A stretch of DNA of 64,000 bases from the human T2T-CHM13v2.0 reference genome, Homo sapiens: assembly GCF_009914755.1 (NCBI RefSeq), contig NC_060940.1, one strand, 5' to 3'. Numbering within the stretch: the stretch's first letter is position 1; each line of letters starts with the position of its first letter. Position numbers and translations under genes: made by a program. Positions 1 to 48,100 of this stretch are shown piece after piece. The notes beneath the pieces are model-generated. The model saw only the letters and a program-made list of their open reading frames with translations, was not told the DNA's origin and searched no databases.

Positions 1-3000
1 TGATTCAGTTCGATTCCTTACAATGATTCCCTACGATTCCTTTCTATGATGATTCCATTCGATTCCATTCATTGATGATTCCATTCGACTCCATTCGATG
101 ATGATTCCTTTCGATTCCATTTGACGATGTTTCCATTTGAGTCCATTCGATGATGATTCAATTCAGTTCTGTTCTATTGTGAATCCATTCGATTTCATTC
201 AATGCTTCTATTTGATTCCATTCGACGATGATTCCATCTCTTTCCCTTCGATGATTCCATTTGATTCCATTCAGTGATGATTCCATTTGATTCCATCTGA
301 TGATGATTTCACTTGATTCATTTCAATGATGATTCCATTCAAGTCCATTCGATGATTCCATTGGAGTCCAAACGATCATTCCATTCGATTCCATTCAATG
401 ATGATTCCATTCATGTCCATTCAATGAATCCTTTCAATTCCATTCGATGATGACTCCATTCGAGTACATTCGATGATTCCATTTGATTCCATTTGATGAT
501 GATTACATTCAATTCCATTCGAAGATGATTCCATTCAATTCCACTTGATGATGATTCCGTATGAATCCATTCGCTGATTATTCCATTCGATTCCATTCAT
601 TGACGATTCCATTCGATTCCATTCAATGATGATTCTCTTCTATTGCATTCGATGATTCCGTTCGATTCCATTCGATGATGATTCCATTAGATTCCATTCG
701 ATTGTTGCATTCGATTCCCTTCGATGATGATTCCTTTGAATTCCATTCGATTATGATTCCGTATGAATCCATTTGATGATTATTCCATTGGATTCCTTTC
801 GATGATGATTCCATTCGATTCCATTTGATGATGTTTCTCATGTATTCCATTTGATAATTCCTTTCAATTCCCTTCGATGATGATTCTTTCGAGTCAATTC
901 GATGATTCTATTCCATTCCCTTCGATGATGATTCCATTTCACTCCATTCGATGATTCCATTCGATTCAATTTGGTGATGATTCAATTCGATGACATTCGA
1001 TGACTCCATTCAATTTCATTTGATGATGATTACATTCGAGTCCATTTGATGATTGTATTCCTTTCCTTTTGATGATTATTCCATTCGTGTCTATTCAAAG
1101 ATTCCATTCTATTCCATTCAATGATGATTCCAATTGATTCCATTCAATGATTATGGCTATCGATTCCACTCGTTGATTCCATTTGATTCCATTCGATGAT
1201 TATTCCGTTAGATTCCATTAGGAGATTCCATTCGATTTTATTCAATGATTCCAATTGATTCCATTCAATGATGATTCCATTCCACTCCGTTCAGTGATTC
1301 CATTTGAGTCCATTTGAGGATTCCATTCGAGTCCATTTGATGATTCCATTCTTTTCCATTTGATGATGATTCCATTAGGGTCCATTCAATGATTCCATTC
1401 GAGTCCATTCGTTAATGTCTTTCGAGTCCTTTTGATCACTACATTCGAGTCCATTCAATGATTCTATTCGATTCCATTCCATGATGATTCCATTCGAGTT
1501 CATTCGATGATTGCATTCGAGTCCATTTGATGATTCCATAAGATTCCATTCGACAATGATTCCATTCGTGTCCATTTGATGATTCCATTTATTTCCTATC
1601 GATGAAGATTCCATTCGAGTGTATTCGATGATTCCATTCAAATCCATTCGATGATGATTCCATTCCAGTCCATTCGATCATTCCACTTGATTCCATTTGA
1701 TGACTATTCCATTCAAATCCATTTGATGATTCCATTCGATTCCATTCGATGTTACCATTCCAGTATATACGATGATTCCACTCGATTCCATTTGATGATT
1801 ATTCCATTGGAGTCGACTTAGTGAATCCTTTAGATTCTACTCGAAGATGATTCCATTCGAGTCCATTCGATGATACCATTCAATTCCATTCGTTGATGCT
1901 TCCATTCAAGTGCATTCGATGATATCATTCGATTCCATTTGATGATAATTCCATTTGATTCCATGTGATGATTCTATTCCATTCCATTCAATGATAATTC
2001 CATTCAATTCAGTGATTCCTCTGGACTCCATTTGATGATGATTCCATTCAATGATTCCATTCGATTCTATTCGAAAATGATTCCATTTGAATCCATTTGA
2101 TGATGATTCCATTCGATTCCATTTGATGATTCCATTCGATTCCATTCGACGATGATTCCATTCGATTCCATTTGATGATTCCATTCTATTCTATTCGATG
2201 ATGATTCCATTCGATTCCATTCGATGATGATTGGATTCGATTCCATTTGATGATTTCATTTGATTCCATTCGATGATGATTTCGATCAATTCCATTCGAT
2301 GATTCCATTCGATTCCATTTGATAATGATTACATCCGAGTCCATTCGATGATTCCATTTGAGCCCGTTCGATAATTCCATTTGAGTCCAATCAATGATTC
2401 CATTCATTTCCATTCAATGATTCCATTCGAGTCCATTTGATCATTCCGGTAGGGTCCGTTCGATGTTGATTCCATTGGAGTGCATTCGATGATTCCATTC
2501 GAGTCCATTTTAGGATTTGATTCGAGTCCTTTCGATGATTCCATTCGATTCCACTCGATGCGATGATGATTTCATTCGAGTCCATTCGACACTTCCAATC
2601 GATTCCATTTGATGTTTCCATTCGACTCCAATTGATGATTCCATTCAATTCCATTCGATGATGATTCCGTACGATTCCATTCTGTGATGATTCCATGTGA
2701 TTGCATTCAATGATGATTCCTTTCGATTGCATTCGATTATGATTCATTTCGTGTTCATTCTATGGTTCCACAGGTTTCACATCGTGTCCATTCCATTATT
2801 CCATTCTATTCCATTTGATGATGATTCCATTCGATTCCATTCATTGGTGATTCCACTCAATTCCATTCAATGATTCCATTCCATTTCTTTCAACAATGAT
2901 TCCATTAGTTTCTAATCGATGATCCACTTGATTCCATTTGACGATGATTCCATTCTTGTCCATTCGATGATTCCATTTGATTCCATATGATGATGATTCC

Positions 3001-4250
3001 ATTCGATTCCATACGATGATGATTCCATTCGAGTCCATTCAATGGTGATTCCATTCAATTCCATTCGATGATTCCTTTCGATTCCATTTGATGATGATGG
3101 CATTCGATTCCTTTCAATCATTCCCTTTGATTCCACTCAAAGGTGGTTTCATTCAAGTCCATTCGATAATTGCATTCGATTCCATTCTATGATGATTCCA
3201 TTCGAGTCCATTTGATGATTCCATTCAATTCAAGTCAATGATGATTCCATTCGATTCCATTCGATGATTCCATTGGATTCCATTCGATGATGATTCCATT
3301 CAAATCCATTCGATAATTCAATTCACGTCCATTCGATGATGATTCCAATCGAATCCATTCAAAGATTCCATTCAATTCCATTCGATGATTCCCTTAGATT
3401 CCATTCGATGATTCCACTTGATTCCATTTACGATGATTCCATTCGATTCCATGTGATGATTCCATTCAATTCTATTCAATGATGTTTCCATTTGATTCCA
3501 TTCGACCATGATTGCCTTTGATTGCATTCAATGATTCCATTCGGTTCCGTTTGATGATGATTCCGTTCGATTCCATTTGATGATTCCATTTGATTCCATT
3601 GGATGAGTCCATTCGATTACATTCGATGATTATTCCATTCGAGTGCATTAGATGATTCCATTCGAGTCCATTCGATGATTCCATTCGAGTCCATTCGATG
3701 ATTCCATTCGATTCCATTCAATGTTGATTCTGTTCAAATCCATTCGATGATTCCACTCGATTCCATTCGATGACTCCATTTGATCCCATTCGATGATTTC
3801 CTTTGATTCCCTTTGATGATCATTCCATTTGATTCAATTCGGTGATTTCATTTGATTCCATTCAGTGATGTTTCCATTCGACTCCATTCGATGATGATTC
3901 CATTCGACTACATTCGATTATGATTTCATTCAATTCCATTCGATAAAGATTCCCTTCGAGTCCAATCGATGATTCCATTCGATTCCATTCAACGATGATT
4001 TGATTCGTGTCCATTCGATGATTCCATTTGATTCCACTTGATGATGATTCCATTCGAGTCCATTTGATGATTCCATTCAATTCCATTCTCCGATGATTTC
4101 TTTTGAGCCCATTCAATGCTTCCACTCGATTACATATGATGATGACTCCATTCGATGAAACTCGATGATGATTCCATTCGCTTGCATTCGATGATGGTTC
4201 CACTTGAGTCCGTTAGAAGATTCTATTCAATTACATTCCATGACGATTCC
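1..4250 (+). repeat. Near-identical copy of 9035-13284 (offset 9,034 bp)
   Basis: ORF landmarks 411/9445, 623/9657, 1375/10409, 1906/10940 and 3862/12896 all differ by 9,034. The copies share private variants: GTCGAC at 1812/10846, CAGGTTTCACATCGTG, and a 5-bp insertion in GATGCGATGATG. Confidence 0.93.
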
Positions 4251-7200
4251 ATTCGAGTCCATTCGATGATTCCATTTGAATCCATTCGACGATGATTCCA
4301 TTTGATGCTATTCGATGATTCCATTGGATTCCATTCGATGATGATTCCATTCGACTTGATTTGATGTTTCTATTTGAGTCCATTCGGTTATTTTATTAGA
4401 CTACATTCGATGATGATTCCATTCGATGCCATTCAATGATTCCATTTGATTCCACTCAATGATGATTGCATTCGTGTCCATTCGATGATTCCATTTGGTT
4501 CCATTTGATGATGATTCCATTCGAGTCCATTCGATGATACCATTCAATTCCATTCGATGATCATTCCATTCGAATCCATTTGATGATTCCACTCAATTCC
4601 ATTTGATGACTCCTTTCATTCCCATTCGATGATTCCCTTCAGTTCCAATTGGATGATCTTTCCATTTGATTCAATATGGTGACTCCATTCTATTATATTC
4701 AATGATGATTCCATTCGACTCCATTAGATGATGACTCCATTCCATTCCATTCGATTGTGATTTCATTCGATTCCATTCGAAGATGATTCCATTCGAGTCC
4801 ATTTGATGATTCCATTCGATTCCATTCAATGATGATTCCACTCAAATCCATTGGATGATTCCATTCGTTTCCAATTGGTGATTTCATTAGATTCCATTCG
4901 AGGATGATTCTATTCGAGTCCATTCAATGATTCCATTGGATTCCGTTTGATAATGATTCCATTAGAGTTCATTCGATGATTCCCTTCGAGTCCATTCGAT
5001 TATTTCTTTTGATTCCATTTGATGATGATTCCATTCGATTCCGTTCAATGATTCCATTCCATTCCATTCGATGATGATTCCATTCGATAATGATTACATT
5101 CGAGCCCATGTGATGATTCCATTAGATTCTATTCAATGATGATTCCATTCGACCACATTCGATGATGGCATTCGAGTCCATTCGATGATTTCACTCGATT
5201 CCACTTGATGATGATTCCTTTTGAGTCCATTTGATGATTACATTCGAGTCCATGAGATGACTCCATTCGATTCCATTTCATGATGATGCAATTCGAGGCT
5301 ATTCGATCATCCCATTTTAGTGCATTCGGTGATTCTCTTTTATTACATTCGATGAGGGCTCCATTCGAGTCCATTCAATGATTCCATTAGATTCCACTCG
5401 ATGATGATTCCATTTGAGTCCATTCAAAGATTCCTTTCGAGTCCATTCGATAATTCTATTGGATTCCACTAGGTGATGATTCCTTTCGAGTCAATTCGAT
5501 GATTCCTTTCAAGTGCCTTCAATGATTCCATTCGATTCCATTCGATGACGATTCATTTCAAGTCCATTCAGTGGTTCCATTCTGTTGAATTTGATGGTTC
5601 CATTTGATTCCATTCGATGATGATTCCATTCGTGTCCATTGGATGATTCCATTCGATTCCTTTCGAGGAAGATTCCATTCGACTCCATTCGATGATTCCG
5701 TTCGATTCCATTCCATGATGATTCCATTTGATTCCATTCCATGATTCCATTCGATACCATTCGATGATGATTCCATTCGACTCCATTTGATGAATCCATT
5801 CAATGCTTCCATTCGAGTCCATTCGATGATTCCATTCGATTCCATTCCATGAAGATTCCATTCGAGTACATTTGATGATTCCATTTAATTCCATAGGATG
5901 ATGATTCTATTAGGGTCCGTTGACTATTCCATTCAATTCCATTCGAAGACTCCATTCGAGTCCACTCGATGATTCTATTTGATTCCATTTGATAATTCCA
6001 TTCGATTCCATTTGATGTTGATTCCATTCGAGTCCATTCGATCATTATTACATTTGATTCTATTCGATGATTCCATTCGATTCCATTTGATGAGGATTCC
6101 ATTCGAGACCATTTGATGATTCCATTCAATTCCATTGGATGATTCCAATATTTTCCATTAGATGATGATTCCATTCGATTCCATTCAATGATGATTCCAT
6201 CAGAATCCATTCGATGATGACTCCTTTTGCTTCCATTCAATGATCATTACATTCGGTTCCATTCGATGATGATTCCTTTGGATTCCATTCGATGATGCTT
6301 CCATTCGATTCCATTTGATGATGATTCTTTTCGATTCCATTTGATGATGATTCCATTTGATTCCATTCGATGGTGATTCCATTTGATGATTCCATTCGAT
6401 TGTATTCGATGATGATTCCACTCGATTCTATTTGACGATGACTGCATTCGATTCCATTTGATGATTCCATTTGATTCCATTCGATGATGATTCTGATCAA
6501 TTGCATTCGATGATCCATTCGATTCCATTTGATGGTTCCATTTGATTCCATTTGATAATGATTCCTTTCGAGTCCATTCGATGATTCCATTTGCGGATAT
6601 TCGATAATTCCATTTGAGTCCAACCGATGATTCCATTCGAGGCCATTCAATCATTCTTTTTGAGTCCTTTCGATAAAGATTCCATTTTAGTCCATTCAAT
6701 AATTCCACTGGAGTCCATTCGATGATTGCTTTTAATTCCATTCGATGATATTCCATTCGAGTCCATTCGATGATTCCATTCGTTGCTACTAGATGATGAT
6801 TCCATTCATGACCATTTAGTGATTCCATTCGATTTCATTCGTTGATGATTCCATTCGAGTCCATTCCATGATTCCATTCAAGTCCATTTGATGATTTCTT
6901 TGAATTCAATTCGATGATGATTCCATTCGAGTCCATTCGATGATTCCATTCAGTTCCATTCGATGATGATTCCTTTCGAGACCATATGATGATTCCATTT
7001 GATTTCATTCGATGATGATTCCATTCGATTCCATTCGATGATTCCATTCTATTCCATTCGATGATGATTCCATTCGAGTCCATTTAATGATTCCATTGGG
7101 TTCAATTCAATGATGATTACATTGGATTCTCTTCTATGATACCATTCAATTCCGTTCATTGACAATTTGATTCCATTCGATGATGATTCCATTTGAGTTC

Positions 7201-10200
7201 ATTCGATGATTCTATTCGATTCTCTTCGATGGTGATTCAATTCTATTATATTGGATGATTCCATTCGATTCCATTTGATGTTGATTCAATTCGATTCTAT
7301 TCGATGATGATTCCATTGGATTTCATTTGATGATTCTATTCGGTTCCATTCAATGATGATTGACTTCTCGTCCATTGGATGATTCCATTTCATTCCATTC
7401 GATGATGATTCCATTCGATTCCATTCGATGATTCCATTTGATTCCATTCGACGGTGAGCAATTCGATTCAATTCCATGATGATTCTATTTGATTCAGTTA
7501 GATGATGTTTCCATTCGAATCCATTCCATGATTATTCCATTGGAATCCATTCGGCGATGATTCCATATGAGTCAATTCAATGATGATTCCATATGGGTCA
7601 GTTCGATGATAATTCCATTTGATTTCATTCGATGCTTCTATTCAATTCCAGTCGATGATGATTCCGTTGGAGTCCATACGATGACTCCATTTGATTTCAT
7701 TTGATGATGATTCCATTCGATTCCATTCGATGACTCCATTCTGTTCCATTCGATGATGATTCCATTCGAGTCCATTCGATGATTCCATTCGAGTCCATTT
7801 CATGATTCCATTGGGTTCAATTCGATGATGATTACACTGGATTCCATTCTATGATTCCATTCAATTCCATTCGTTGATGATTCGATTCCATTCAATGATG
7901 ATTCCATTTGAGTTCATTCGATGATTCTATTCGATTCCGTTTGATGGTGATTCAATTCTATTATATTGGATGATTCCATTCGATTCCATTTGATGATGAT
8001 TCCATTCGATTCCATTCGATGATGATTCCATTTGATTCCATTTGATGTTGATTCTATTCGATTGTATTCAATGATGATTCCATTCGATTTCATTTGATGA
8101 TTCTATTCGATTCCTTTCGATGATTCTATTCCATTCCATTCGATGATGATTCAATTCTCTTCCATTGGATGATTCCATTTTATTCCATTCGACGATGACT
8201 CCATTTGATTCCATTCAATGATGATTCCATTCGATTCCATTCGGTGATTCCATTTGATTCCATTCGACGGTGAGCAATTTGATTCAATTCCATAATGATT
8301 CTATTTGATTCAATTAGATGATGTTTCCATTCGAATCCATTCGGTGATGATTCCATTGGTATCCATTCGACGATGATTCCATATGAGTCAATTCGATGAT
8401 GATTCCATACGAGTCCGTTGGATGATAATTCCATTTGATTTCATTCAATCCTTCTATTCGATTCCATTTGATGATGATTCCATCTGAATCCATTCTCCGA
8501 TTCCATTCGATTTCATTCGATGCTTCTATTTGATTTCATTCGAAGATGATTCCTTTCAATTCCGTTCATTAATTCCATTTGATTCCATTCGATGATGATT
8601 CCTTCCGATTCCATTGGATGATGATTCCATTCGAGTCCATTCGATGATTCCGTTCTAATCCATTCTATGATTCCATTCGAGTCCATTCGATGATTCCATT
8701 CGATTCCATTCAGTGATGATTCCATTTGATTCCATCTGATGATGATTTCATTTGATTCCATTCGATGATGATTCCATTGGAGTCCATTGAATGATTCAAT
8801 TCAATTCCATTCCATGTGGATTCCATTCGAATTCATTCGATTATTCCATTCAAATCCCTTCGTTGATTCCATCTGATTCCACTTGACGATGATTCCATTC
8901 AAGTCCAATCGATGATTCCATTCGGTTCCATTCAATGATTCCATTCGAGTCCATTTATGTATTATATTCGTGTCCACTTGATGACTCACTCCATTCAATT
9001 CCATTTAATGATGATTCCATTTGATTCCATTTGATGATTCAGTTCGATTCCTTACAATGATTCCCTACGATTCCTTTCTATGATGATTCCATTCGATTCC
9101 ATTCATTGATGATTCCATTCGACTCCATTCGATGATGATTCCTTTCGATTCCATTTGACGATGTTTCCATTTGAGTCCATTCGATGATGATTCAATTCAG
9201 TTCTTTTCTATTGTGAATCCATTCGATTTCATTCAATGCTTCTATTTGATTCCATTCGACGATGATTCCATCTCTTTCCCTTCGATGATTCCACTTGATT
9301 CCATTCAGTGATGATTCCATTTGATTCCATCTGATGATGATTTCACTTGATTCATTTCAATGATGATTCCATTCAAGTCCATTCGATGATTCCATTGGAG
9401 TCCAAACGATCATTCCATTCGATTCCATTCAATGATGATTCCATTCATGTCCATTCAATGAATCCTTTCAATTCCATTCGATGATGACTCCATTCGAGTA
9501 CATTCGATGATTCCATTTGATTCCATTTGATGATGATTACATTCAATTCCATTCGAAGATGATTCCATTCAATTCCACTTGATGATGATTCCGTATGAAT
9601 CCATTCGCTGATTATTCCATTCGATTCCATTCATTGACGATTCCATTCGATTCCATTCAATGATGATTCTCTTCTATTGCATTCGATGATTCCGTTCGAT
9701 TCCATTCGATGATGATTCCATTAGATTCCATTCGATTGTTGCATTCGATTCCCTTCGATGATGATTCCTTTGAATTCCATTCGATTATGATTCCGTATGA
9801 ATCCATTTGATGATTATTCCATTGGATTCCTTTCGATGATGATTCCATTCGATTCCATTTGATGATGTTTCTCATGTATTCCATTTGATAATTCCTTTCA
9901 ATTCCCTTCGATGATGATTCTTTCGAGTCAATTCGATGATTCTATTCCATTCCCTTCGATGATGATTCCATTTCACTCCATTCGATGATTCCATTCGATT
10001 CAATTTGGTGATGATTCAATTCGATGACATTCGATGACTCCATTCAATTTCATTTGATGATGATTACATTCGAGTCCATTTGATGATTGTATTCCTTTCC
10101 TTTTGATGATTATTCCATTCGTGTCTATTCAAAGATTCCATTCTATTCCATTCAATGATGATTCCAATTGATTCCATTCAATGATTATGGCTATCGATTC

Positions 10201-13200
10201 CACTCGTTGATTCCATTTGATTCCATTCGATGATTATTCCGTTAGATTCCATTAGGAGATTCCATTCGATTTTATTCAATGATTCCAATTGATTCCATTC
10301 AATGATGATTCCATTCCACTCCGTTCAGTGATTCCATTTGAGTCCATTTGAGGATTCCATTCGAGTCCATTTGATGATTCCATTCTTTTCCATTTGATGA
10401 TGATTCCATTAGGGTCCATTCAATGATTCCATTCGAGTCCATTCGTTAATGTCTTTCGAGTCCTTTTGATCACTACATTCGAGTCCATTCAATGATTCTA
10501 TTCGATTCCATTCCATGATGATTCCATTCGAGTTCATTCGATGATTGCATTCGAGTCCATTTGATGATTCCATAAGATTCCATTCGACAATGATTCCATT
10601 CGTGTCCATTTGATGATTCCATTTATTTCCTATCGATGAAGATTCCATTCGAGTGTATTCGATGATTCCATTCAAATCCATTCGATGATGATTCCATTCC
10701 AGTCCATTCGATCATTCCACTTGATTCCATTTGATGACTATTCCATTCAAATCCATTTGATGATTCCATTCGATTCCATTCGATGTTACCATTCCAGTAT
10801 ATACGATGATTCCACTCGATTCCATTTGATGATTATTCCATTGGAGTCGACTTAGTGAATCCTTTAGATTCTACTCGAAGATGATTCCATTCGAGTCCAT
10901 TCGATGATACCATTCAATTCCATTCGTTGATGCTTCCATTCAAGTGCATTCGATGATATCATTCGATTCCATTTGATGATAATTCCATTTGATTCCATGT
11001 GATGATTCTATTCCATTCCATTCAATGATAATTCCATTCAATTCAGTGATTCCTCTGGACTCCATTTGATGATGATTCCATTCAATGATTCCATTCGATT
11101 CTATTCGAAAATGATTCCATTTGAATCCATTTGATGATGATTCCATTCGATTCCATTTGATGATTCCATTCGATTCCATTCGACGATGATTCCATTCGAT
11201 TCCATTTGATGATTCCATTCTATTCTATTCGATGATGATTCCATTCGATTCCATTCGATGATGATTGGATTCGATTCCATTTGATGATTTCATTTGATTC
11301 CATTCGATGATGATTTCGATCAATTCCATTCGATGATTCCATTCGATTCCATTTGATAATGATTACATCCGAGTCCATTCGATGATTCCATTTGAGCCCG
11401 TTCGATAATTCCATTTGAGTCCAATCAATGATTCCATTCATTTCCATTCAATGATTCCATTCGAGTCCATTTGATCATTCCGGTAGGGTCCGTTCGATGT
11501 TGATTCCATTGGAGTGCATTCGATGATTCCATTCGAGTCCATTTTAGGATTTGATTCGAGTCCTTTCGATGATTCCATTCGATTCCACTCGATGCGATGA
11601 TGATTTCATTCGAGTCCATTCGACACTTCCAATCGATTCCATTTGATGTTTCCATTCGACTCCAATTGATGATTCCATTCAATTCCATTCGATGATGATT
11701 CCGTACGATTCCATTCTGTGATGATTCCATGTGATTGCATTCAATGATGATTCCTTTCGATTGCATTCGATTATGATTCATTTCGTGTTCATTCTATGGT
11801 TCCACAGGTTTCACATCGTGTCCATTCCATTATTCCATTCTATTCCATTTGATGATGATTCCATTCGATTCCATTCATTGGTGATTCCACTCAATTCCAT
11901 TCAATGATTCCATTCCATTTCTTTCAACAATGATTCCATTAGTTTCTAATCGATGATCCACTTGATTCCATTTGACGATGATTCCATTCTTGTCCATTCG
12001 ATGATTCCATTTGATTCCATATGATGATGATTCCATTCGATTCCATATGATGATGATGCCATTCGAGTCCATTCAATGGTGATTCCATTCAATTCCATTC
12101 GGTGATTCCTTTCGATTCCATTTGATGATGATGGCATTCGATTCCTTTCAATCATTCCCTTTGATTCCACTCAAAGGTGATTTCATTCAAGTCCATTCGA
12201 TAATTGCATTCGATTCCATTCTATGATGATTCCATTCGAGTCCATTTGATGATTCCATTCAATTCAAGTCAATGATGATTCCATTCGATTCCATTCGATG
12301 ATTCCATTGGATTCCATTCGATGATGATTCCATTCAAATCCATTCGATAATTCAATTCACGTCCATTCGATGATGATTCCAATCGAATCCATTCAAAGAT
12401 TCCATTCAATTCCATTCGATGATTCCCTTAGATTCCATTCGATGATTCCACTTGATTCCATTTACGATGATTCCATTCGATTCCATGTGATGATTCCATT
12501 CAATTCTATTCAATGATGTTTCCATTTGATTCCATTCGACCATGATTGCCTTTGATTCCATTCAATGATTCCATTCGGTTCCGTTTGATGATGATTCCGT
12601 TCGATTCCATTTGATGATTCCATTTGATTCCATTGGATGAGTCCATTCGATTACATTCGATGATTATTCCATTCGAGTGCATTAGATGATTCCATTCGAG
12701 TCCATTCGATGATTCCATTCGAGTCCATTCGATGATTCCATTCGATTCCATTCGATGTTGATTCTGTTCAAATCCATTCGATGATTCCACTCGATTCCAT
12801 TCGATGACTCCATTTGATCCCATTCGATGATTTCCTTTGATTCCCTTTGATGATCATTCCATTTGATTCAATTCGGTGATTTCATTGGATTCCATTCAGT
12901 GATGTTTCCATTCGACTCCATTCGATGATGATTCCATTCGACTACATTCGATTATGATTTCATTCAATTCCATTCGATAAAGATTCCCTTCGAGTCCAAT
13001 CGATGATTCCATTCGATTCCATTCAACGATGATTTGATTCGTGTCCATTCGATGATTCCATTTGATTCCATTTGATGAGGATTCCATTCGACTCCATTTG
13101 ATGATTCCATTCAATTCCATTCTCCGATGATTTCTTTTGAGCCCATTCAATGCTTCCTCTCGATTACATATGATGATGACTCCATTCGATGAAACTCGAT

Positions 13201-16059
13201 GATGATTCCATTCGCTTGCATTCGATGATGATTCCACTTGAGTCCGTTAGAAGATTCTATTCAATTACATTCCATGACGATTCCGTTCGAATCCATTTGA
13301 TGATTCCATTACACTCCATTCGACAATGATTCCATTCAATGTTATTCGATGATTCCATTCGATCTCATTCGATGATGATTCCATTCAACTCCATTCGATG
13401 TTTCCATTCGAGTTCATTCTATTATTCCATTAGATTCCATTAGATGATGATTCCATTCGATTCCATTTGATGATTGCATTCTATTTCATTTGATGATGAT
13501 TCCATTCGAGTCCATTCGATGATTCCATTCGAGTCCATTTAATGAATCCATTGGTTTCAATTCTATGATGATTATATTGGATTCCATTCGTTGATGATTT
13601 CATTCGATTCCATTCAATGATGATTCCATTCAATTCCATTCAATGATTCCATTCAATTCCATACGATGATGATTCCATTTGATTTGATTCAACAGTGAGC
13701 CATTCGATTCAATTCCATGATGATTCTATTTGATTCACTTGGTTGACATTTCCATTCGGTTCCATTCGATGATGATTCCATTTGATTCCATTCAAAGATG
13801 ATTCCATTCTAGCCCATTCAATCATTCCATTCGATTCTATTCAATGATGATTCCATTCATGTCGATTTGGTGATTCCATTTGACTTCATTTGATGATGAT
13901 TCCTTTCAAGTTCATTAGATGATTCCATTCGATTCCATTTGATGATGATCCCATTCGAGTCCATTCAGTGATTCCACTCGTTTCCATTCCATGATGATTC
14001 CATTCCATTCCATTCAATGATTCCATTCGATTCCGTTTGATGATGATTTCATTCGAGTCCATTTGATGATTCCATTTGATTCCATTCGATGATGATTCCA
14101 TTCGAGTCCATTCGATGATTCTATTCGAATCCATTTGATGATTTCTTTTGATTATATTTGGTGATGATTCCATTGGAGTCCATTCAATGATTCCATTCGA
14201 TTCCAATCGATGGTGGTTCCATTAGAGTCCATTTAATGATTCCATTTGATTCCAGTCTCTGATGTTTACATTCGAGTCCATACGATGATTCCACTCAATT
14301 CCATATGATGATGATTCCATTCGATTCCATTCGATGATTCCATTCTATTCTATTCAAAGGTGATTCCATTCGAGTACATTAGATGATTCCATTCGATTCC
14401 ATTCAATGATGATTCTATTTGTGTCCCTTAGATGATTCCACATGATTCCATTACATGATGATACTATTTGAGCCCATCCAATGATTCCCTTCGATTCCAT
14501 TCGATGAGGATTCCATTCGATTCAATTCATTGGTGATTCTATTCAATTCAATTCTTTGATTCAATTCCATTCCATTCGACAATGATTCCATTCGATTTCT
14601 TTCGATGATTCCACTCAATTTCACTTGACATTGATTCCATTCGATTCCATTCAATGATTCCATTTGATTCCAGTGGATGATGATTGCCGTCGATTCCATT
14701 CGATCACTCCATTCTGTTCCATTTGATGATGATTACATTCGATTCCATTTGATGATTCCATCTGATTCTATTCGAGGATTCCATTTGATTCCATTCGATG
14801 ATGATTCCATTCGAGTCCATTCGATGATTTCATTCGAGTACATCCAATGATTCCATTCGAGTCCATTTGATGATTCCATTTCATTCCATTTGATTATGAT
14901 TCTACTAGAGTCCATTCAATGACTCCATTCGAGTCCATTCAACAGTTCCATCCGAGTCCATTCGATGATTCCATTCGATTCCATTTGATCATTCCATTCG
15001 AGTCCATTTAATCATTACAGTCGAGTCCATTTGGTGATTCCACTGGATTTCTTTTGATAATGATACCATTCAATTACATTTGATGATGATCCCATTCAAT
15101 TTCATTTGATGATGATTCCATTAGAGTCCATTCCATGATTTCATTCGAGTCCCTTCATTGATTCCATCCGATTTCATTTCATGATGACTCCATTCGAGTC
15201 CATTCGATGATTCCACTCGATTCCATTAGATGATTCCATTGGAGTCCATTTGATTGTTCCATTCGATTCCATTCGATTCCTTTCGAAGATTATTCCATTT
15301 GAGTCCATTCGATGATGATTCCATTCCATTCCATTCGATGATTCCGTTTGATTCCATTCGATGATTCCCTGCGATTCCTTTCTATGATGATTCCATTCCA
15401 TTCCATTCAATGATTCCATTCGAATCTATTCCATGATGATTCCTTTCGATTCCATTCGCTGATGTTTCCGTTCAATTCCATTCGATGATGATTCCATTCG
15501 ATTCCATTCATTGAGGATTCCATTGGATTCCATTCAATGATGATTCCATTCTATTCCATTCAATGATTGCATTCAATTCCATTCAATGATTATGCCATTA
15601 GAGTAAATTCAACGATTCCATTCAATACCATTCGATGATGATTCCTTTTGAGTCCATTCAATGATTTCATTCAAGTCCATTTGATGATTCCTTTCAATTC
15701 CATTCCATGATGATTCCATTCGAGTCCATTCGATGATTCCATTCAATTGCATTCGATGATTCCATTATATTCCATTCAACGATGATTCCATTCGAGTCCA
15801 TTCGATGATTCCATTAGAGTACATTTAATGATTGCTTTGTTTTCAATTCGAAGATGATTACATTGGATTCCATTCTATGATTCCATTCGATTCCATTCAT
15901 TGATGATTCCACCCAATTCCATTCGATGATGATTCCATTCGATTTCAATGCTTCTACTCGATTCCATTCAATGATGATTCAATTCTATTCCGTTTGATGA
16001 TTCCATTAGATTCCATTCTATGATGATTCCATTCGAGTCCATTCGAAGATTTCATTCGA
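4231..16059 (+). repeat. One complete long higher-order unit of 11,829 bp
   Basis: 4231-~4820 recurs almost identically at 16060-~16650 (identical ORFs at 4401 and 16230, offset 11,829). The interval contains every segment of the 6,112-bp unit in order, plus extra blocks. Confidence 0.8.
8945..10810 (+). repeat. ~1.85-kb accessory HSat2 block ('block B'), absent from the 6,112-bp unit; copies at 1-1777, ~22820-24660, ~32712-34552 and truncated at ~55478-56370
   Basis: Diagnostic k-mers are TTTATGTATTATATTCGTGTCCAC, GATTCCCTACGATTCC, GGAGTCCAAACGATC and ATTATGGCTATCG. ORF landmarks occur at 411, 9445, 23319, 33211 and 55977. Confidence 0.88.
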
Positions 16060-19000
16060 TTACATTCCATGACGATTCCATTCGAGTCCATTCGATGATT
16101 CCATTTGAATCCATTCGACGATGATTCCATTTGATGCTATTCGATGATTCCATTGGATTCCATTCGATGATGATTCCATTCGACTTGATTTGATGTTTCT
16201 ATTTGAGTCCATTCGGTTATTTTATTAGACTACATTCGATGATGATTCCATTCGATGCCATTCAGTGATTCCATTTGATTCCACTCAATGATGATTGCAT
16301 TCGTGTCCATTCGATGATTCCATTTGGTTCCATTTGATGATGATTCCATTCGAGTCCATTCGATGATACCATTCAATTCCATTCGATGATCATTCCATTC
16401 GAATCCATTTGATGATTCCACTCAATTCCATTTGATGACTCCTTTCATTCCCATTCGATGATTCCCTTCAGTTCCAATTGGATGATCTTTCCATTTGATT
16501 CAATATGGTGACTCCATTCTATTATATTCAATGATGATTCCATTCGACTCCATTAGATGATGACTTCATTCCATTCCATTCGATTGTGATTTCATTCGAT
16601 TCCATTCGAAGATGATTCCATTCGAGTCCATTTGATGATTCCATTCGATTTCATTCAACGATGATTTGATTCGTGTCCATTCGATGATTCCATTTGATTC
16701 CACTTGATGATGATTCCATTCGAGTCCATTTGATGATTCCATTCAATTCCATTCTCCGATGACTTCTTTTGAGCCCATTCAATGCTTCCACTCGATTCCA
16801 TATGATGATGACTCCATTCGATGAAATTCGATGATGATTCCATTCGCTTGCATTCGATGATGATTCCACTTGAGTCCATTAGAAGATTCTATTCAATTGC
16901 ATTCCATGACGATTCCGTTCGAGTCCATTTGATGATTCCATTAGACTCCATTCGACGATGATTCCATTCGAGGTTATTCGATGATTCCATTCGATCTCAT
17001 TCGATGATGATTCCATTCAACTCCATTCGATGTTTCCATTCGAGTTCATTCTATTATTCCATTAGATTCCATTCGATGATGATTCCATTCGATTCCATTT
17101 GATGATTGCATTCTATTTCATTTGATGATGATTCCATTCGAGTCCACTCGATGATTCCATTCGAGTCCATTTAATGAATCCATTGGTTTCAATTCTATGA
17201 TGGTTACATTGGATTACATTCGTTGATGATTTCATTCGGTTCCATTCAATGATGATTCTATTCAATTCCTTTCAATGTTTCCATTCAATTCCATACGATG
17301 ATGATTCCATTTGATTTGATTCGACAGTGAGCCATTCGATTCAATTCCATGATGATTCTATTTGATTCAATTGGTTGACATTTCCATTCGATTCCATTCG
17401 ATGATGATTCCCTTTGATTCAATTCAAAGATGATTCCATTCTAGCCCATTCAATCATTCCATTCGATTCTATTCAATGATGATTCCATTCATGTCGATTT
17501 GGTGATTCCATTTGACTTCATTTGATGATGATTCCTTTCAAGTTCATTAGATGATTCCATTCGATTCCATTTGATGATGATCCCATTCGAGTCCATTCAG
17601 TGATTCCACTCGTTTCCATTCCATGATGATTCCATTCCATTCCATTCAATGATTCCATTCGATTCCGTTTGATGATGATTTCATTCGAGTCCATTTGATG
17701 ATTCCATTTCATTCCATTCGATGATGATTCCATTCGAGTCCATTTGATGATTCTATTCGAATCCATTTGATGATTTCTTTTGATTATAGTTGGTGATGAT
17801 TCCATTGGAGTCCATTCAATGATTCCATTCTATTCCAATCGATGATGATTCCATTAGAGTCCATTTAATGATTCCATTTGATTCCAGTCTCTGATGATTA
17901 CATTCGAGTCCATACGATGATTCCACTCAATTCCATATGATGATGATTCCATTCGATTCCATTCGATGATTCCATTCTATTCTATTCAATGGTGATTCCA
18001 TTCGATTCCATTCAATGATGATTCTATTTGTGTCCCTTAGATGATTCCACATGATTCCATTAGATGATGATACTATTTGAGCCCATCCAATGATTCCCTT
18101 CGATTCCATTCGATGAGGATTCCATTCGATTCAGTTCATTGGTGATTCAATTCAATTCAATTCTTTGATTCCATTCCATTCCATTCGACAATGATTCCAT
18201 TCGATTTCTTTCGATGATTCCACTCGATTCCACTTGACATTGATTCCCTTCCATTCCATTCAATGATTCCATTTGATTCCAGTGGATGATGATTGCCATC
18301 GATTCCATTCGATCACTCCATTCTATTCCATTTGATGATGATTACATTCGATTCCATTTGACGATTCCATCTGATTCTATTCGAGGATTCCATTTGATTC
18401 CATTCGATGATGATTCCATTCGAGTCCATTCGATGATTTCATTCGAGTACATCCAATGATTCCATTCGAGTCCATTTGATGATTCCATTTGATTCCATTT
18501 GATAATGATTCTACTAGAGTCCATTCAATGACTCCATTGGAGTCCATTCAACAATTCCATTCGACTCCATTTGATGATTCCATTCGATTCCATTTGATGA
18601 TTCCATTCGAGTCCATTTAATCATTACAGTCGAGTCCATTTGGTGATTCCACCGGATTTCTTTTGATAATGATACCATTCAATTACATTTGATGATGATC
18701 CCATTCAATTTCATTTGATGGTGATTCCATTAGAGTCCATTCGATGATTTCATTCGAGTCCCTTCATTGATTCCATCCGATTTCATTGGATGATGACTCC
18801 ATTCGAGTCCATTCGATGATTCCACTCGATTCCATTAGATGATTCCATTGGAGTCCATTTGATTGTTCCATTCGATTCCATTCGATTTCTTTCGAAGATT
18901 ATTCCATTTGAGTCCATTCGATGATGATTCCATTCCATTACATTCGATGATTCCGTTTGATTCCATTCGATGATTCCCTTCGATTCCTTTCTTTGATGAT

Positions 19001-37400: not shown

Positions 37401-37800
37401 TTCGATGATGATTCCATTTGATTCCATTCAAAGATGATTCCATTCTAGCCCATTCAATCATTCCATTCGATTCTATTCAGTGATGATTCCATTCATGTCG
37501 ATTTGGTGATTCCATTTGACTTCATTTGATGATGATTCTTTTCAAGTTCATTAGATGATTCCATTCGATTCCATTTGATGATGATCCCATTCGAGTCCAT
37601 TTGATGATTCCACTCGTTTCCATTCCATGATGATTCCATTCCATTCCATTCAATGATTCCATTCGATTCCGTTTGATGATGATTTCATTCGAGTCCATTT
37701 GATGATTCCATTTGATTCCATTCGATGATGATTACATTCGAGTCCATACGATGATTCCACTCAATTCCATATGATGATGATTCCATTCGATTCCATTCGA
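17900..37800 (+). repeat. Tandem pair of ~9.9-kb composite units (4,127-bp subunit plus a ~5.8-kb subunit)
   Basis: Offsets are 9,864 (18342/28206, 19484/29348), 9,892 (20661/30553 through 25805/35697) and ~9,993 (26790/36783 region). Many private SNPs are shared. Confidence 0.9.
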
Positions 37801-43161: not shown

Positions 43162-45141
43162 ATGATTCCACTTGATTCCATTTACGATGATTCCATTCGA
43201 TTCCATGTGATGATTCCATTCAATTCTATTCAATGCTGTTTCCATTTGATTCCATTCGACCATGATTGCCTTTGATTCCATTCAATGACTCCATTCGGTT
43301 CCTTTTGATGATGATTCCGTTCGATTCCATTTCATTATTCCATTTGATTCCATTGGATGAGTCCATTCGATTACATTTGATGATTATTCCATTCGAGTGC
43401 ATTAGATGATTCCATTCGAGTCCATTCGATGATTCCATTCGATTCCATTCGATGTTGATTCTGTTCAAATCCATTCGATGATTCCACTCGATTCCATTCG
43501 ATGACTCCAGTTGATCCCATTCGATGATTTCCTTTGATTCCCTTTGATGATCATTCCATTTGATTCAATTCGGTGATTTCATTTGATTCCATTCAGTGAT
43601 GTTTCCATTCGACTCCATTCGATGATGATTCCATTCGACTCCATTCGATTATGATTTCATTCAATTCCATTCGATAATGATTCCCTTCGAGTCCATTCGA
43701 TGATTCCATTCGATTCCATTCAACAATGATTTGATTCGTGTCCATTCGATGATTCCATTTGATTCCACTTGATGATGATTCCATTCGAGTCCATTTGATG
43801 ATTCCATTCAATTCCATTCTCCGATGATTTCTTTTGAGCCCATTCAATGCTTCCACTCGATTCCATATGATGATGACTCCATTCGATGAAATTCGATGAT
43901 GATTCCCTTTGATTCCATTCAAAGATGATTCCATTCTAGCCCATTCAATCATTCCATTCGATTCTATTCAATGATGATTCCATTCATGTCGATTTGGTGA
44001 TTCCATTTGACTTCATTTGATGATGATTCCTTTCAAGTTCATTAGATGATTCCATTCGATTCCATTTGATGATGATCCCATTCGAGTCCATTCAGTGATT
44101 CCACTCGTTTCCATTCCATGATGATTCCATTCCATTCCATTCAATGATTCCATTCGATTCCGTTTGATGATGATTTCATTCGAGTCCATTTCATGATTCC
44201 ATTTGATTCCATTCGATGATGATTCCATTCGAGTCCATTCGATGATTCTATTCGAATCCATTTGATGATTTCTTTTGATTATAGTTGGTGATGATTCCAT
44301 TGGAGTCCATTCAATGATTCCATTCGATTCCAATCGATGGTGATTCCATTAGAGTCCATTTAATGATTCCATTTGATTCCAGTCTCTGATGATTACATTC
44401 GAGTCCATACGATGATTCCACTCAATTCCATATGATGATGATTCCATTCGATTCCATTCGATGATTCCATTCTATTCTATTCAATGGTGATTCCATTCGA
44501 GTACATTAGATGATTCCATTCGATTCCATTCAATGATGATTCTATTTGTGTCCCTTAGATGATTCCACATGATTCCATTAGATGATGATACTATTTGAGC
44601 CCATCCAATGATTCCCTTCGATTCCATTCGATGAGGATTCCATTCGATTCAATTCATTGGTGATTCTATTCAATTCAATTCTTTGATTCCATTCCATTCC
44701 ATTCGACAATGATTCCATTCGATTTCTTTCGATGATTCCACTCGATTCCACTTGACATTGATTCCCTTCGATTCCATTCAATGATTCCATTTGATTCCAG
44801 TGGATGATGATTGCCATCGATTCCATTCGATCACTCCATTCTATTCCATTTGATGATGATTACATTCGATTCCATTTGACGATTCCATCTGATTCTATTC
44901 GAGGATTCCATTTGATTCCATTCGATGATGATTCCATTCGAGTCCATTCGATGATTTCATTCGAGTACATCCAATGATTCCATTCGAGTCCATTTGATGA
45001 TTCCATTTGATTCCATTTGATAATGATTCTACTAGAGTCCATTCAATGACTCCATTGGAGTCCATTCAACAATTCCATTCGACTCCATTTGATGATTCCA
45101 TTCGATTCCATTTGATGATTCCATTCGAGTCCATTTAATCA
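39600..45141 (+). repeat. 5,542-bp spacing unit (6,112 minus a 570-bp deletion at ~43895)
   Basis: Landmarks 40460/46002, 41665/47207, 42666/48208 and 43593/49135 all differ by 5,542. Confidence 0.87.
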
Positions 45142-48100
45142 TTACAGTCGAGTCCATTTGGTGATTCCACCGGATTTCTTTTGATAATGATACCATTCAA
45201 ATACATTTGATGATGATCCCATTCAATTTCATTTGATGATGATTCCATTAGAGTCCATTCGATGATTTCATTCGAGTCCCTTCATTGATTCCATCCGATT
45301 TCATTGGATGATGACTCCATTCGAGTCCATTCGATGATTCCACTCGATTCCATTAGATGATTCCATTGGAGTCCATTTGATTGTTCCATTCGATTCCATT
45401 CAATTCCTTTCGAAGATTATTCCATTTGAGTCCATTCGACGATGATTCCATTCCATTCCATTCGATGATTCCGTTTGATTCCATTCGATGATTCCCTTCG
45501 ATTCCTTTCTTTGATGATTCCATTCCATTCCATTCAATGATTCCATTCGAATCTATTCCATGATGATTCCTTTCGATTCCATTCGCTGATGTTTCCGTTC
45601 AATTCCATTCGATGATGATTCCATTCGATTCCATTCATTGAGGATTCCATTTGATTCCATTCAATGATGATTCCGTTCTATTCCATTCAATGATTGCATT
45701 CAATTCCATTCAATGATTATCCCCTTAGAGTAAACTCAACGATTCCATTCAATACCATTCGATGATGATTCCTTTTGAGTCCATTCAATGATTTCATTCA
45801 AGTCCATTTGATGATTCCTTTCAATTCCATTCTATGATGATTCCATTCGAGTCCATTCGATGATTCCATTCGATTGCATTCGATGATTCCATTATATTCC
45901 AGTCAACGATGATTCCATTCGAGTCCATTCGATGATTCCATTAGAGTACATTTAATGATTGCTTTGTTTTCAATTCGAAGATGATTACATTGGATTCCAT
46001 TCTATGATACCATTCGATTCCATTCAATGATGATTCCACTCAAATCCATTGGATGATTCCATTCGTGTCCATTCGGTGATTTCATTAGATTCCATTCGAG
46101 GATGATTCCATTCGATTCCATTCGATGATTCCATTCAATTCCATTCGATGATGATTCCATTCCAGTCCATATGATCATTCCATTTGATTTCATTCGATGA
46201 TGATTCCATTCGATTCCATTCGATGATTCCATTCTATTCCATTCGATGATGATTCCATTCGAGTCCATTCGATGATTCCATTCGAGTCCATTTAATGATT
46301 CCATTGGGTTCAATTCAATGATGATTACATTGGATTCCGTTCTATGATTCCATTCAATTCCGTTCATAGACAATTTGATTCCATTCGATGATGATTCCAT
46401 TTGAGTTCATTCGATGATTCTATTCGATTCTCTTCGATGGTGATTCAATTCTATTATATTGGATGATTCCATTCGATTCCATTTGATGTTGATTCAATTC
46501 GATTCTATTCGATGATGATTCCATTGGATTTCACTTGATGATTCTATTCGATTCCATTCAATGATGATTCACTTCTCGTCCATTGGATGATTCCATTTCA
46601 TTCCATTCGATGATGATTCCATTCGATTCCATTCGATGATTCCATTTGATTCCATGCGACGGTGAGCAATTCGATTCAATTCCATGATGATTCTATTTGA
46701 TTCAATTAGATGATGTTTCCATTCGAATCCATTCCATGATTATTCCATTGGAATCCATTTGGCGATGATTCCATATGAGTCAATTCAATGATGATTCCAT
46801 ATGGGTCCGTTCGATGATAATTCCATTTGATTTCATTCGATGCTTCTATTCTATTCCAGTCGATGATGATTCCGTTGGAGTCCATACGATGATTCCATTT
46901 GATTTCATTTGATGATGATTCCATTCGATGATGATTACATTGGATTCCATTCTATGATTCCATTCAATTCCATTCGTTGATGATTCGATTCCATTCAATG
47001 ATGATTCCATTTGAGTTCATTCGATGATTCTATTCGATTCCGTTCGATGGTGATTCAATTCTATTATATAGGATGATTCCACTCGATTCCATTTGATGAT
47101 TATTCCATTGGAGTCCACTTAGTGAATCCTTTAGATTCTACTCGAAGATGATTCCATTCGAGTCCATTCGATGATACCATTCAATTCCATTCGTTGATGC
47201 TTCCATTCAAGTGCATTCGATGATATCATTCGATTCCATTTGATGATAATTCCATTTGATTCCATGCGATGATTCTATTCGATTCCATTCAATGATAATT
47301 CCATTCAATTCAGTGATTCCTCTGGACTCCATTTGATGATGATTCCATTCAATGATTCCATTCGATTCTATTCCAAAATGATTCCATTTGAATCCATTTG
47401 ATGATGATTCCATTAGATTCCATTTGATGATTCCATTCGATTCCATTTGACGATGATTCCATTCGATTCCATTTGATGATTCCATTCTATTCTATTCGAT
47501 GATGATTCCATTCGATTCCATTTGATGATGATTGGATTCGATTCCATTTGATGATTTCATTTGATTCCATTCGTTAATGATTTCGATCAACTCCATTCGA
47601 TGATTCCATTTGATTCCATTCTATAATGATTACATCCGAGTCCATTCGATGATTCCATTTGAGCCCGTTCGATAATTCCATTTGAGTCCAATCAATGATT
47701 CCATTCATTTCCATTCAATGATTCCATTCGAGTCCATTTGATCATTCTGGTAGGGTCCGTTCGATGTTGATTCCATTGGAGTGCATTCGATGATTGCATT
47801 CGAGTCCATTTTAGGATTTGATTCGAGTCCTTTCGATGATTCCATTCGATTCCACTCGATGATGATTTCATTCGAGTCCATTCGACACTTCCAATCGATT
47901 CCATTTGATGTTTCCATTCGAGTCCAATTGATGATTCCATTCAATTCCATTCGATGATGATTCCGTACGATTCCATTCTGTGATGATTCCATGTGATTCC
48001 ATTCAATGATGATTCCTTTAGATTGCATTCGATTGTGATTCATTTCGTCTTCATTCTATGGTTCCACAGGTTTCCATTCGTGTCCATTCCATTATTCCAT

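What the first reader, a model, noticed from the sequence alone, without database searches (positions are those of the whole stretch)
4231..16059. An 11,829-bp long unit that contains the 6,112-bp HSat2 unit: candidate ancestral repeat
Seen: walking along the 6,112-bp unit (52.0-53.3 kb), the alignment to this interval jumps four times. The jumps are 758 bp (after ~15890, rejoining at the equivalent of ~4820), 2,013 bp (~4920 to ~6940), 105 bp (~7715 to ~7820) and 2,836 bp (~7975 to ~10811). Small indels add +23, -5 and -23 bp, so 11829-758-2013+23-105-2836-28 = 6112. Inference: the ~6.1-kb HSat2B period arose from a ~11.8-kb precursor by a few register-preserving deletions, and one intact precursor survives here. 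I do not know whether this has been described.
Basis: partly seen in the sequence, partly recalled or inferred. Interest (0 to 1): 0.8.

Follow-up and report, generated by a model that had tools for sequence, protein, structure and literature searches.

The report
Long-form chr16 HSat2 repeat unit
The 11.8-kb stretch is one of about a hundred copies of a long form of the chromosome 16 satellite repeat, and the common 6.1-kb unit looks like a cut-down version of that long form, so it is a tidy piece of satellite history but not a lone relic.

Summary
The 6,112-bp unit (43901-50012) maps colinearly at 97-98% onto a rotated 4231-16059. The jumps are 758, 2,013, 105 and 2,836 bp plus small indels, which sum exactly to 11,829-6,112.

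The claim that one intact precursor survives here is wrong.
- A 28-mer specific to the 2-kb extra block P occurs 99 times, all on chr16 at 39.63-52.12 Mb, in 45 clusters of 1-6.
- Full tandem 11,829-bp units exist, for example at chr16:48834508-48858756, 99.5% identical to this one.
- The commonest long form is 12,665 bp, which is this unit plus an 836-bp internal duplication.
- Long units make up about 6% of units (99 against 1,674 markers).

The direction of change is supported. A diverged HSat2 block on chr7 is about 9% from both families, and carries P, R and X in the long-unit order, running straight across the X|D and P|b boundaries. The 6.1-kb unit therefore lost these blocks.

In sequence the long family is a young, uniform clade on a derived stem, not a fossil. 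The 6,112-bp period is already published. I found no description of the long form.

The parts
4231..16059 (+). One 11,829-bp long-form HSat2B unit (L), block order Z-a-P-b-q-c-R-X-D-E-f
   Evidence: It matches in one ungapped diagonal, at 99.5%, two tandem units at chr16:48834508-48858756.
4231..4821 (+). Block Z (591 bp), private to long units; with f it forms the 758-bp difference
   Evidence: Equals 16060-16650 at 99.7%. No other window match of 100 bp or more above 92.6%.
4829..4910 (+). Block a (82 bp), shared with short units
4911..6931 (+). Block P (2,021 bp), absent from every short-type unit in the window
   Evidence: Longest other window match is 162 bp at 87.7%. 99 exact marker hits, all on chr16. 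A chr7 homolog at 90-93% in blocks of 250-544 bp.
6932..7721 (+). Block b, shared with short units
7722..7826 (+). Block q (105 bp), absent from the 6.1-kb unit
   Evidence: junction J3
7827..7978 (+). Block c, shared with short units
7979..8989 (+). Block R, private to long units. Together with 7704-7978 it contains b', an old paralog of b (7704-8481 against 6986-7665, 89-92%)
   Evidence: chr7 homolog of 8245-8955.
8990..10804 (+). Block X, present in long units and, at 97%, in the 9.9-kb units (22864-24190, 32778-34082, 55522-56363)
   Evidence: chr7 runs across the X|D boundary in one 924-bp diagonal at 90.8%.
10805..13284 (+). Block D, shared with short units
   Evidence: trees
13285..15899 (+). 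Block E, shared with short units
15900..16059 (+). Block f (160 bp), private to long units
16060..16650 (+). Second copy of Z, cut short. Here long-type sequence joins short-type sequence that resumes at the equivalent of 13002
   Evidence: The same junction recurs at chr16:45004763.
1..4250 (+). End of the upstream long unit (X-D), a copy of 9035-13284. That unit is 12,665-type but lacks E+f, giving a 9,870-bp spacing
43901..50012 (+). Reference 6,112-bp short unit used for the comparison

Best explanation
4231-16059 is one copy of a long structural form of the chr16 HSat2B nested tandem repeat. The base long form is 11,829 bp, with block order Z-a-P-b-q-c-R-X-D-E-f. A commoner derivative of 12,665 bp carries an internal tandem duplication of about 836 bp (L 8345-9184).

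About 100 long units, roughly 6% of all units, lie in 45 small clusters of 1-6 units across the whole 12.5-Mb array, among a majority of 6,112-bp and other shorter forms.

The long block order is the older one. The 6,112-bp unit arose from a long-type unit by loss of P and of R+X, and probably of f+Z and q. The likely mechanism is recombination or slippage between locally similar, in-register stretches of the satellite.

The long units seen today are not untouched relics. They descend from one long-type lineage that picked up its own substitutions and was then copied and spread recently, in part inside large duplications of array segments.

Shown: colinearity, copy number, tandem copies, and an outgroup that carries P, R and X. 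Inferred: the deletion mechanism, the order of the events, and the direction for f+Z and q.
For: 1. Colinear map and arithmetic.
2. The long unit contains everything the short units have. When 16651-64000 is mapped on L, only 343 bp stay unmatched in stretches of 30 bp or more. L holds about 3.9 kb that no short-type unit in the window has.
3. P marker: 99 of 99 exact hits on chr16, reversed-pattern control 0. Second P marker with up to 3 mismatches: 103 hits, of which the 100 listed are exact and on chr16.
4. Of 98 spacings between neighbouring P markers, 54 are under 14 kb. Of those, 40 are 12,613-12,673 bp and 7 are 11,819-11,833 bp, three of them exactly 11,829.
5. Two complete tandem 11,829-bp units at 99.5% in one diagonal, and the structure of the 12,665-bp form.
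6. The two copies of the 836-bp duplication differ at 11 substitutions plus a 4-bp indel. L's single copy agrees with copy 1 at 5 of these differences and with copy 2 at 7, in interleaved order. This fits the state before the duplication, not a collapse of it.
7. Outgroup chr7:59341001-59361000, minus strand, has long-order homologs:
   - L 5025-6971 (P into b)
   - 8245-8955 (R)
   - 9007-10088 (X)
   - 10057-10980, across X|D in one 924-bp diagonal at 90.8%, with a second copy at 10515-10968
   At X|D, chr7 follows L on both sides (88% and 93%), while U6 matches only on the right (35% and 99%).
8. chr7 is about equally far from long (9.04%) and short (8.60%) D consensus sequences, so it is not a recent offshoot of the long family.
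9. b' differs from b by 6.5-8.1%, against about 2% between long and short families, so R predates the split.
10. All four junctions in the 6.1-kb unit lie where the two L breakpoints are locally alike.
Against: - In sequence the long family is not basal. In the D tree rooted on chr7 it is one branch of a polytomy. The unrooted D tree is star-like.
- Long-short distance (1.7-2.3%) is about the same as short-short distance in D (2.0%).
- Most fixed differences are derived on the long side: 12 against 2 using b', 8 against 2 using chr7, and CpG losses 10 against 3.
- Long units differ from each other by only 0.2-0.8%, even 12 Mb apart. The surviving long lineage therefore expanded recently.
- A model in which all short copies form one clade is not rejected (p-AU 0.13), so branching order is open.
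- Only one outgroup block was examined. It is old and rearranged, at 80-82% overall identity against 74-76% off register. It gives no clear Z, f or q.
- Junction homology is weak evidence in a satellite, where in-register similarity is everywhere. I computed no chance baseline for it.
Confidence: 0.75

Rival explanations
1. The long unit is derived. A 6.1-kb-type unit gained Z+f, P, q and R+X by recombination with other HSat2 sequence, and the product was then amplified.
For: The long family sits on a long derived stem with a shallow crown and is not basal in the trees. It is a minority of units, 99 of about 1,674.
Against: - The chr7 outgroup has P, R and X in long order and crosses X|D and P|b.
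- It would need four separate insertions of non-duplicated sequence.
- No donor was found: both P markers hit only chr16 long units among all listed hits.
- b' is older than the long-short split.
- X also occurs in short-type 9.9-kb units at 97%.
Confidence: 0.1
2. The direction cannot be read from chr7. The chr7 block would be an old transfer from a chr16 long-type unit made after the long and short forms split, and has since diverged fast.
For: Only one outgroup block was examined. It is short (about 15 kb of HSat2), rearranged and only 80-82% identical overall.
Against: chr7 is slightly closer to the short consensus (8.60%) than to the long consensus (9.04%). It shares the long state at only 2 of 10 fixed differences. 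A descendant of the long lineage should share most of them.
Confidence: 0.1
3. One reading: a single intact ancestral unit that survived at this one place.
For: Within the 64-kb window P occurs only once.
Against: 99 to 103 copies genome-wide, tandem runs of the same 11,829-bp unit, and a further copy 9,870 bp upstream.
Confidence: 0.01
4. Assembly artefact in the T2T-CHM13 chr16 satellite.
For: None found. The region is highly repetitive.
Against: The same structure recurs about 100 times with consistent spacing and copy-specific substitutions.
Confidence: 0.02

Closest known systems
The 6,112-bp chr16 satellite repeat unit of T2T-CHM13 (reported by SRF, PMC10153287; the passage read credits Altemose 2022)
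   Same: Same array and same sequence family. The long unit holds all of this unit's sequence in the same order, at 97-98% identity.
   Different: The long unit has 5.7 kb more (Z+f, P, q, R+X). It is a separate sequence clade and makes up about 6% of units. The passages I read do not mention it.
Nested tandem repeats (NTRs) in HSat2/3 arrays, with periodicity that varies along an array (Altemose et al. preprint 10.1101/2021.07.12.452052, passages read)
   Same: A multi-kb unit built from diverged (CATTC)n-derived sequence and repeated in tandem, with several period classes in one array.
   Different: Here the relation between two period classes is resolved block by block and given a direction with an outgroup. 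Their Fig. S10 and supplement were not visible to me and may already list 11.8- or 12.7-kb peaks.
Structural variants of alpha-satellite higher-order repeats (same preprint; legend of the HOR structural-variant figure panel seen)
   Same: Canonical and variant unit lengths coexist. Variants arise by deletion or duplication of parts of the unit and cluster locally.
   Different: HSat2 has no discrete monomers, so the breakpoints fall in locally similar stretches, not at monomer boundaries.
HSat2A2 1.77-kb unit of chr1 (Altemose et al. 2014, PMC4022460, passages read)
   Same: A chromosome-specific multi-kb HSat2 unit.
   Different: A different subfamily and chromosome. I did not compare the sequences.

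Membership tests
HSat2B subfamily (Altemose 2014) | Carries the subfamily-specific 24-mer listed in Table 1 of PMC4022460 | tested here: met
   The 24-mer read occurs 22 times on the + strand of the window. This is a single-marker test only.
HSat2B subfamily (Altemose 2014) | Main location chr16, with minor sites on chr1, 2, 7 and 22 | tested here: met
   The window is chr16:41478001-41542000. A diverged homologous block was found on chr7.
Nested tandem repeat (NTR) | A multi-kb unit repeated head to tail | tested here: met
   Two complete 11,829-bp units in tandem at chr16:48834508-48858756, and 12,665-bp units in tandem at 48.24 Mb. Not met inside the window itself, where only 591 bp recur.
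Nested tandem repeat (NTR) | The unit is made of diverged simple-repeat-derived sequence, not of discrete equal monomers | tested here: met
   Any part aligns to any other at about 74%. The only large internal paralogy is b/b'.
Ancestral form of the 6.1-kb unit | Contains all sequence of the derived unit, in the same order | tested here: met
Ancestral form of the 6.1-kb unit | The extra blocks are present, in the same order, in an outgroup that split off before the two forms did | tested here: met
   Met for P, R and X. Inconclusive for Z, f and q. One outgroup only.
Ancestral form of the 6.1-kb unit | Long-unit copies branch outside, or at the base of, the short-unit copies in trees of shared segments | tested here: inconclusive
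   Polytomy in the D trees. Short monophyly not rejected, p-AU 0.13. In the b tree short-b monophyly has only 73% support.
Unique relic ('one intact precursor survives') | Single copy in the genome | tested here: not met
   99 and 103 marker hits

The most novel reading that the evidence does not exclude
The dominant 6.1-kb unit of the human chr16 heterochromatin block is a multi-deletion derivative of a unit of about 11.8 kb that predates the chr7/chr16 HSat2B split. The long form did not die out. It persists at about 6% of units, has produced a 12.7-kb duplication derivative, and has recently been re-amplified and scattered through the array. This would give a worked, outgroup-rooted example of how the unit length of a classical human satellite shrinks and regrows.
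Probability: 0.6. Interest if true: 0.4.

Novelty: new member of a known kind. Interest (0 to 1): 0.3.

Why it matters
[quoted passage not shown] A block-level map of its unit forms, with a direction of change, does three things. It gives markers for following array evolution across haplotypes and apes, such as the P, R and X words and the a|b and c|D junctions. It provides a concrete case of unit shortening by deletion, followed by takeover by the short form. It also shows that the array cannot be treated as a uniform 6.1-kb repeat. It bears on no gene and no known function, so the value is descriptive and evolutionary.

Tried and rejected
- Whole-window BLAST against itself timed out.
- BLAST with default or loose scoring either returned one hit or ran through the 74% satellite background, and was useless for block mapping. 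I replaced it with exact-word diagonals filtered by identity (onwards).
- Testing whether L is a dimer of two related ~6-kb halves: rejected. Apart from b/b' there is no colinear internal paralogy, and the longest other internal matches are at most 306 bp at 85%.
- A word from R/b' searched with up to 3 mismatches was not specific, because it also hits the paralog b in every unit (1,875 hits). It gave no usable R count, but it did reveal the chr7 block and a recombinant unit.
- Gapped chaining of chr7 against L and U6 at 86% or more picked up many background-level 80-120-bp hits. I rely only on the long blocks.
- A search with the chr7 P-homolog scored only 13 of 19,536 candidates, all on chr16. 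It says nothing about further outgroups.
- Junction-specific words for counting short units were either generic or specific only through SNPs. I used a shared E-end marker instead.
- The Altemose 2022 review was not held.
- Literature searches for a description of the long unit found none. The full text of the Science paper's supplement (Fig. S10) was not available.
Full report
**What the window is.** The window is chr16:41478001-41542000 of the assembly. It is T-rich HSat2 throughout. The HSat2B marker 24-mer of Altemose 2014 occurs 22 times. The window is not a uniform array. The commonest distances between identical 25-mers are 9,892, 22,766, 9,034, 6,112, 16,654 and 5,542 bp. Long near-identical diagonals exist at several of these offsets. 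Any HSat2 stretch aligns to any other at about 74% identity. All block mapping below therefore uses exact-word diagonals filtered at 93% identity or more.

**Check of the observation.** The 6,112-bp unit 43901-50012 maps onto the interval in eight diagonals at 96.7-98.2%. The offset changes are 758 (after wrapping by 11,829), 2,013, -23, 105, 2,836, +5 and +23. They sum to 5,717 = 11,829 - 6,112.

The wrap needs qualifying. In the window the 11,829-bp distance is carried only by a 591-bp block Z (4231-4821 = 16060-16650, 99.7%). After 16650 the sequence resumes at the equivalent of 13002, in short-type sequence. Before 4231 lies a copy of 9035-13284 at offset 9,034.

**Block structure.** I name the blocks as follows.

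| Block | Window coordinates | Note |
|---|---|---|
| Z | 4231-4821 | private to long units |
| a | 4829-4910 | shared |
| P | 4911-6931 | private to long units |
| b | 6932-7721 | shared |
| q | 7722-7826 | absent from the 6.1-kb unit |
| c | 7827-7978 | shared |
| R | 7979-8989 | private to long units |
| X | 8990-10804 | long units and 9.9-kb units |
| D | 10805-13284 | shared |
| E | 13285-15899 | shared |
| f | 15900-16059 | private to long units |

- I mapped the whole window on this unit. In 16651-64000 only 343 bp stay unmatched in stretches of 30 bp or more. The shorter units therefore hold almost nothing that the long unit lacks.
- Z, f, P, q and R have no counterpart at 93% or more in the short-type part of the window.
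- X is not private. It occurs at 97% in the 9.9-kb units (22864-24190, 32778-34082, 55522-56363). There it follows D(...13112) and precedes a second copy of D.
- The only large internal paralogy of the unit is b against b' (6986-7665 against 7704-8481, 89-92%). The unit is not a dimer of two related halves.

**The long unit is a family, not a survivor.**
- A P-specific 28-mer has 99 exact hits in the genome, all on chr16, + strand, 39.63-52.12 Mb. The reversed-pattern control gives 0.
- A second P word with up to 3 mismatches has 101 forward and 2 reverse hits. The 100 listed are exact and on chr16. Three are not listed.
- The 99 sites fall into 45 clusters of 1-6.
- Of 98 neighbour spacings, 54 are under 14 kb. 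Of those, 40 are 12,613-12,673 bp (modes 12,660 and 12,665) and 7 are 11,819-11,833 bp (three exactly 11,829). The rest are single cases: 6,794, 9,870, 11,617, 11,937, 12,239, 12,549 and 13,505 bp.
- chr16:48834508-48858756 holds two complete tandem 11,829-bp units. Each matches 4231-16059 in one ungapped diagonal at 99.5%.
- The 12,665-bp form at 48.24 Mb equals the same unit plus a tandem duplication of L 8345-9184.
- The two duplicated copies differ at 11 substitutions and a 4-bp indel. The window's single copy agrees with copy 1 at 5 of these differences and with copy 2 at 7, in interleaved order. This is what the state before the duplication should look like. A collapse of the duplication should show a single switch point instead. 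The 11,829-bp form is thus the base long form.
- An E-end marker shared by all forms has 1,671 forward and 3 reverse hits, so long units are about 6% of units.
- In the first 100 marker sites (39.56-40.31 Mb) there are 99 spacings. Of these, 26 are exactly 6,112 bp, 42 lie in 6.0-6.2 kb, 15 in 12.5-12.7 kb and 2 near 11.8 kb. The rest range from 1.6 to 13.6 kb.

**Local context.** The 20 kb upstream shows L 10360-16059, then Z-a-P-b-q-c-R, then the 836-bp duplication. This runs into window 1-4250 (= L 9035-13284). The order E-f-Z-a is therefore physically contiguous there. The upstream unit is 12,665-type but lacks E+f, which explains the 9,870-bp spacing of P and the 9,034-bp offset. The window's unit sits in a cluster of about 2.5 long units, bounded on the right by the cut-short Z. 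The same Z|13002 junction recurs at chr16:45004763. At chr16:40101078 a short-type unit switches into long-type sequence by a b|b' exchange. Exchange between the two families is thus visible at the edges of clusters.

**Sequence relations.** Copies fall into two classes by identity to the window's unit: 99-100% (long-type) and 96-98.5% (short-type).

| Comparison | Mean pairwise distance |
|---|---|
| long-long | 0.2-0.8%, including copies 12 Mb apart and near both array ends |
| short-short | 0.8-2.0% |
| long-short | 1.7-2.3% |

Two E copies were dropped from these distances because an indel shifts the ungapped comparison.

- The long copies form one clade: 99% in the b tree and 100/99 in the D trees.
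- The backbone of the trees is a polytomy.
- Holding all short copies together is not rejected (p-AU 0.13).
- Fixed differences lie mostly on the long stem: 12 against 2 using b', with 2 undecided; 8 against 2 using chr7; CpG losses 10 against 3.
- One aberrant b' copy at 52.05 Mb was left out of the b' count.

The long family is therefore a young, uniform expansion of one lineage, and it is no closer to the ancestral sequence than the short units are.

**Direction of the structural change.** The decisive evidence is an outgroup. A word search turned up one HSat2 block on chr7. I fetched chr7:59341001-59361000 and read it on the minus strand. It holds blocks of 200-924 bp at 89-93% identity, in the order of the long unit:
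- L 5025-5278, 5351-5894, 5854-6113, 6123-6372 and 6709-6971 (P, running into b)
- 7119-7317 (b)
- 8245-8590 and 8689-8955 (R)
- 9007-9145, 9485-9845 and 9907-10088 (X)
- 10057-10980 (X into D, one 924-bp diagonal at 90.8%)
- D up to 12313
- then a second partial copy, with 10515-10968 again crossing X|D, and part of E

For scale, P's longest match elsewhere in the window is 162 bp at 87.7%. L's longest internal match other than b/b' is 306 bp at 85%.

At X|D, chr7 follows L on both sides (88% and 93%), while the 6.1-kb unit matches only the right side (35% and 99%). At P|b, chr7 follows L at 91% on the left, where the 6.1-kb unit shows 79%, near background level. chr7 is about equally far from the long (9.04%) and short (8.60%) D consensus sequences, so it split off before the two families did.

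It follows that P, R and X and their adjacency were present before the long-short split, and the 6.1-kb unit lost them. Three further points support this:
- b' differs from b by 6.5-8.1%, several times the long-short distance.
- X survives in short-type 9.9-kb units.
- No donor for P was seen outside the long units.

All four junctions of the 6.1-kb unit lie where the two breakpoints in L are locally alike. This fits deletion by exchange between in-register stretches. In a satellite it is weak evidence, and I computed no chance baseline for it. For f+Z and q the chr7 block gives only background-level hits, so their direction is inferred by analogy.

**Limits.**
- Only one outgroup block was examined, and it is old and rearranged: 80-82% overall identity to the P region, against 74-76% off register.
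- No ape or other human haplotype sequence was available.
- Marker counts are exact-word counts and so are lower bounds.
- Only about 200 kb of the 12.5-Mb array was read directly.

**Literature.**
- The 6,112-bp chr16 unit is in print. The SRF paper's passage says it spans over a megabase and was reported previously.
[quoted passage not shown] Its Fig. S10 and supplement were not visible.
- Altemose 2014 places HSat2B on chr16, 1, 2, 7 and 22 (Table 1). This fits the chr7 block.
- Searches found no description of an 11.8- or 12.7-kb chr16 form or of its relation to the 6.1-kb unit. The 2022 review was not held.

**Verdict.** The long order is very probably the older one, and the 6.1-kb unit is a deletion derivative of it. 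This interval, however, is an ordinary member of a family of about 100 copies that expanded recently, not a lone intact precursor. The finding is a useful structural description of a known satellite, of modest interest.

Noticed in passing
chr16:41.88-47.94 Mb (outside the window; P marker sites): The pattern 'single long unit, then a run of 3-5 long units 23,359-23,408 bp later' recurs at six places: 41.88/41.90, 41.97/41.99, 42.97/43.00, 44.25/44.27, 46.47/46.49 and 47.91/47.94 Mb. This suggests that array segments of several hundred kb to Mb were duplicated as blocks.
   Followed up: partly
window 20408-40192: Two 9,892-bp units at about 99.4% to each other. Each is a 6.1-kb-type unit with an extra short-type X block and a second copy of D (offset 4,127-4,130 between the D copies), plus a small E-end/a/b fragment. 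In the chr7-rooted tree, the D copies next to X branch first, with weak support (88/85).
   Followed up: partly
window 16634-16650 and L019 (chr16:45004763): The junction where a cut-short Z block joins short-type sequence at the equivalent of 13002-13019 is found at both places. This edge of a long-unit cluster has therefore been copied along with its surroundings.
   Followed up: partly
L021, chr16:40101078: A unit that switches from short-type b (L 7010) into long-type b' (L 7703) and continues in long-type R-X-D at 99.5%. It is a recombinant between the two families through the old b/b' paralogy.
   Followed up: partly
chr16:52174371 (+) and 52193133 (-), outside the window: Two further exact P-marker sites lie beyond the last site seen with the first marker, one of them on the minus strand. 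The E-end marker has 3 minus-strand hits. The distal end of the array appears to hold an inverted piece.
   Followed up: no
L017, chr16:52047207-52052203: The long unit near the distal array end is 99.5% like L in Z-a-P-b, but it has its own deletions in R/X (L 7909-8231 and 9310-9505 missing) and a 67-bp unmatched stretch before f.
   Followed up: no
L023, chr7:59355977-59361000 (the first 5,024 bases on the minus-strand reading): This flank of the chr7 HSat2 block has no match to the chr16 unit at 85% or more. I did not examine what it is.
   Followed up: no
chr16:51298951-51387301, outside the window: A run of units spaced about 6,109 bp carries a variant of the b word that combines the short-type 5' change with the b'-type 3' base. 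This may be a local subfamily of short units.
   Followed up: no
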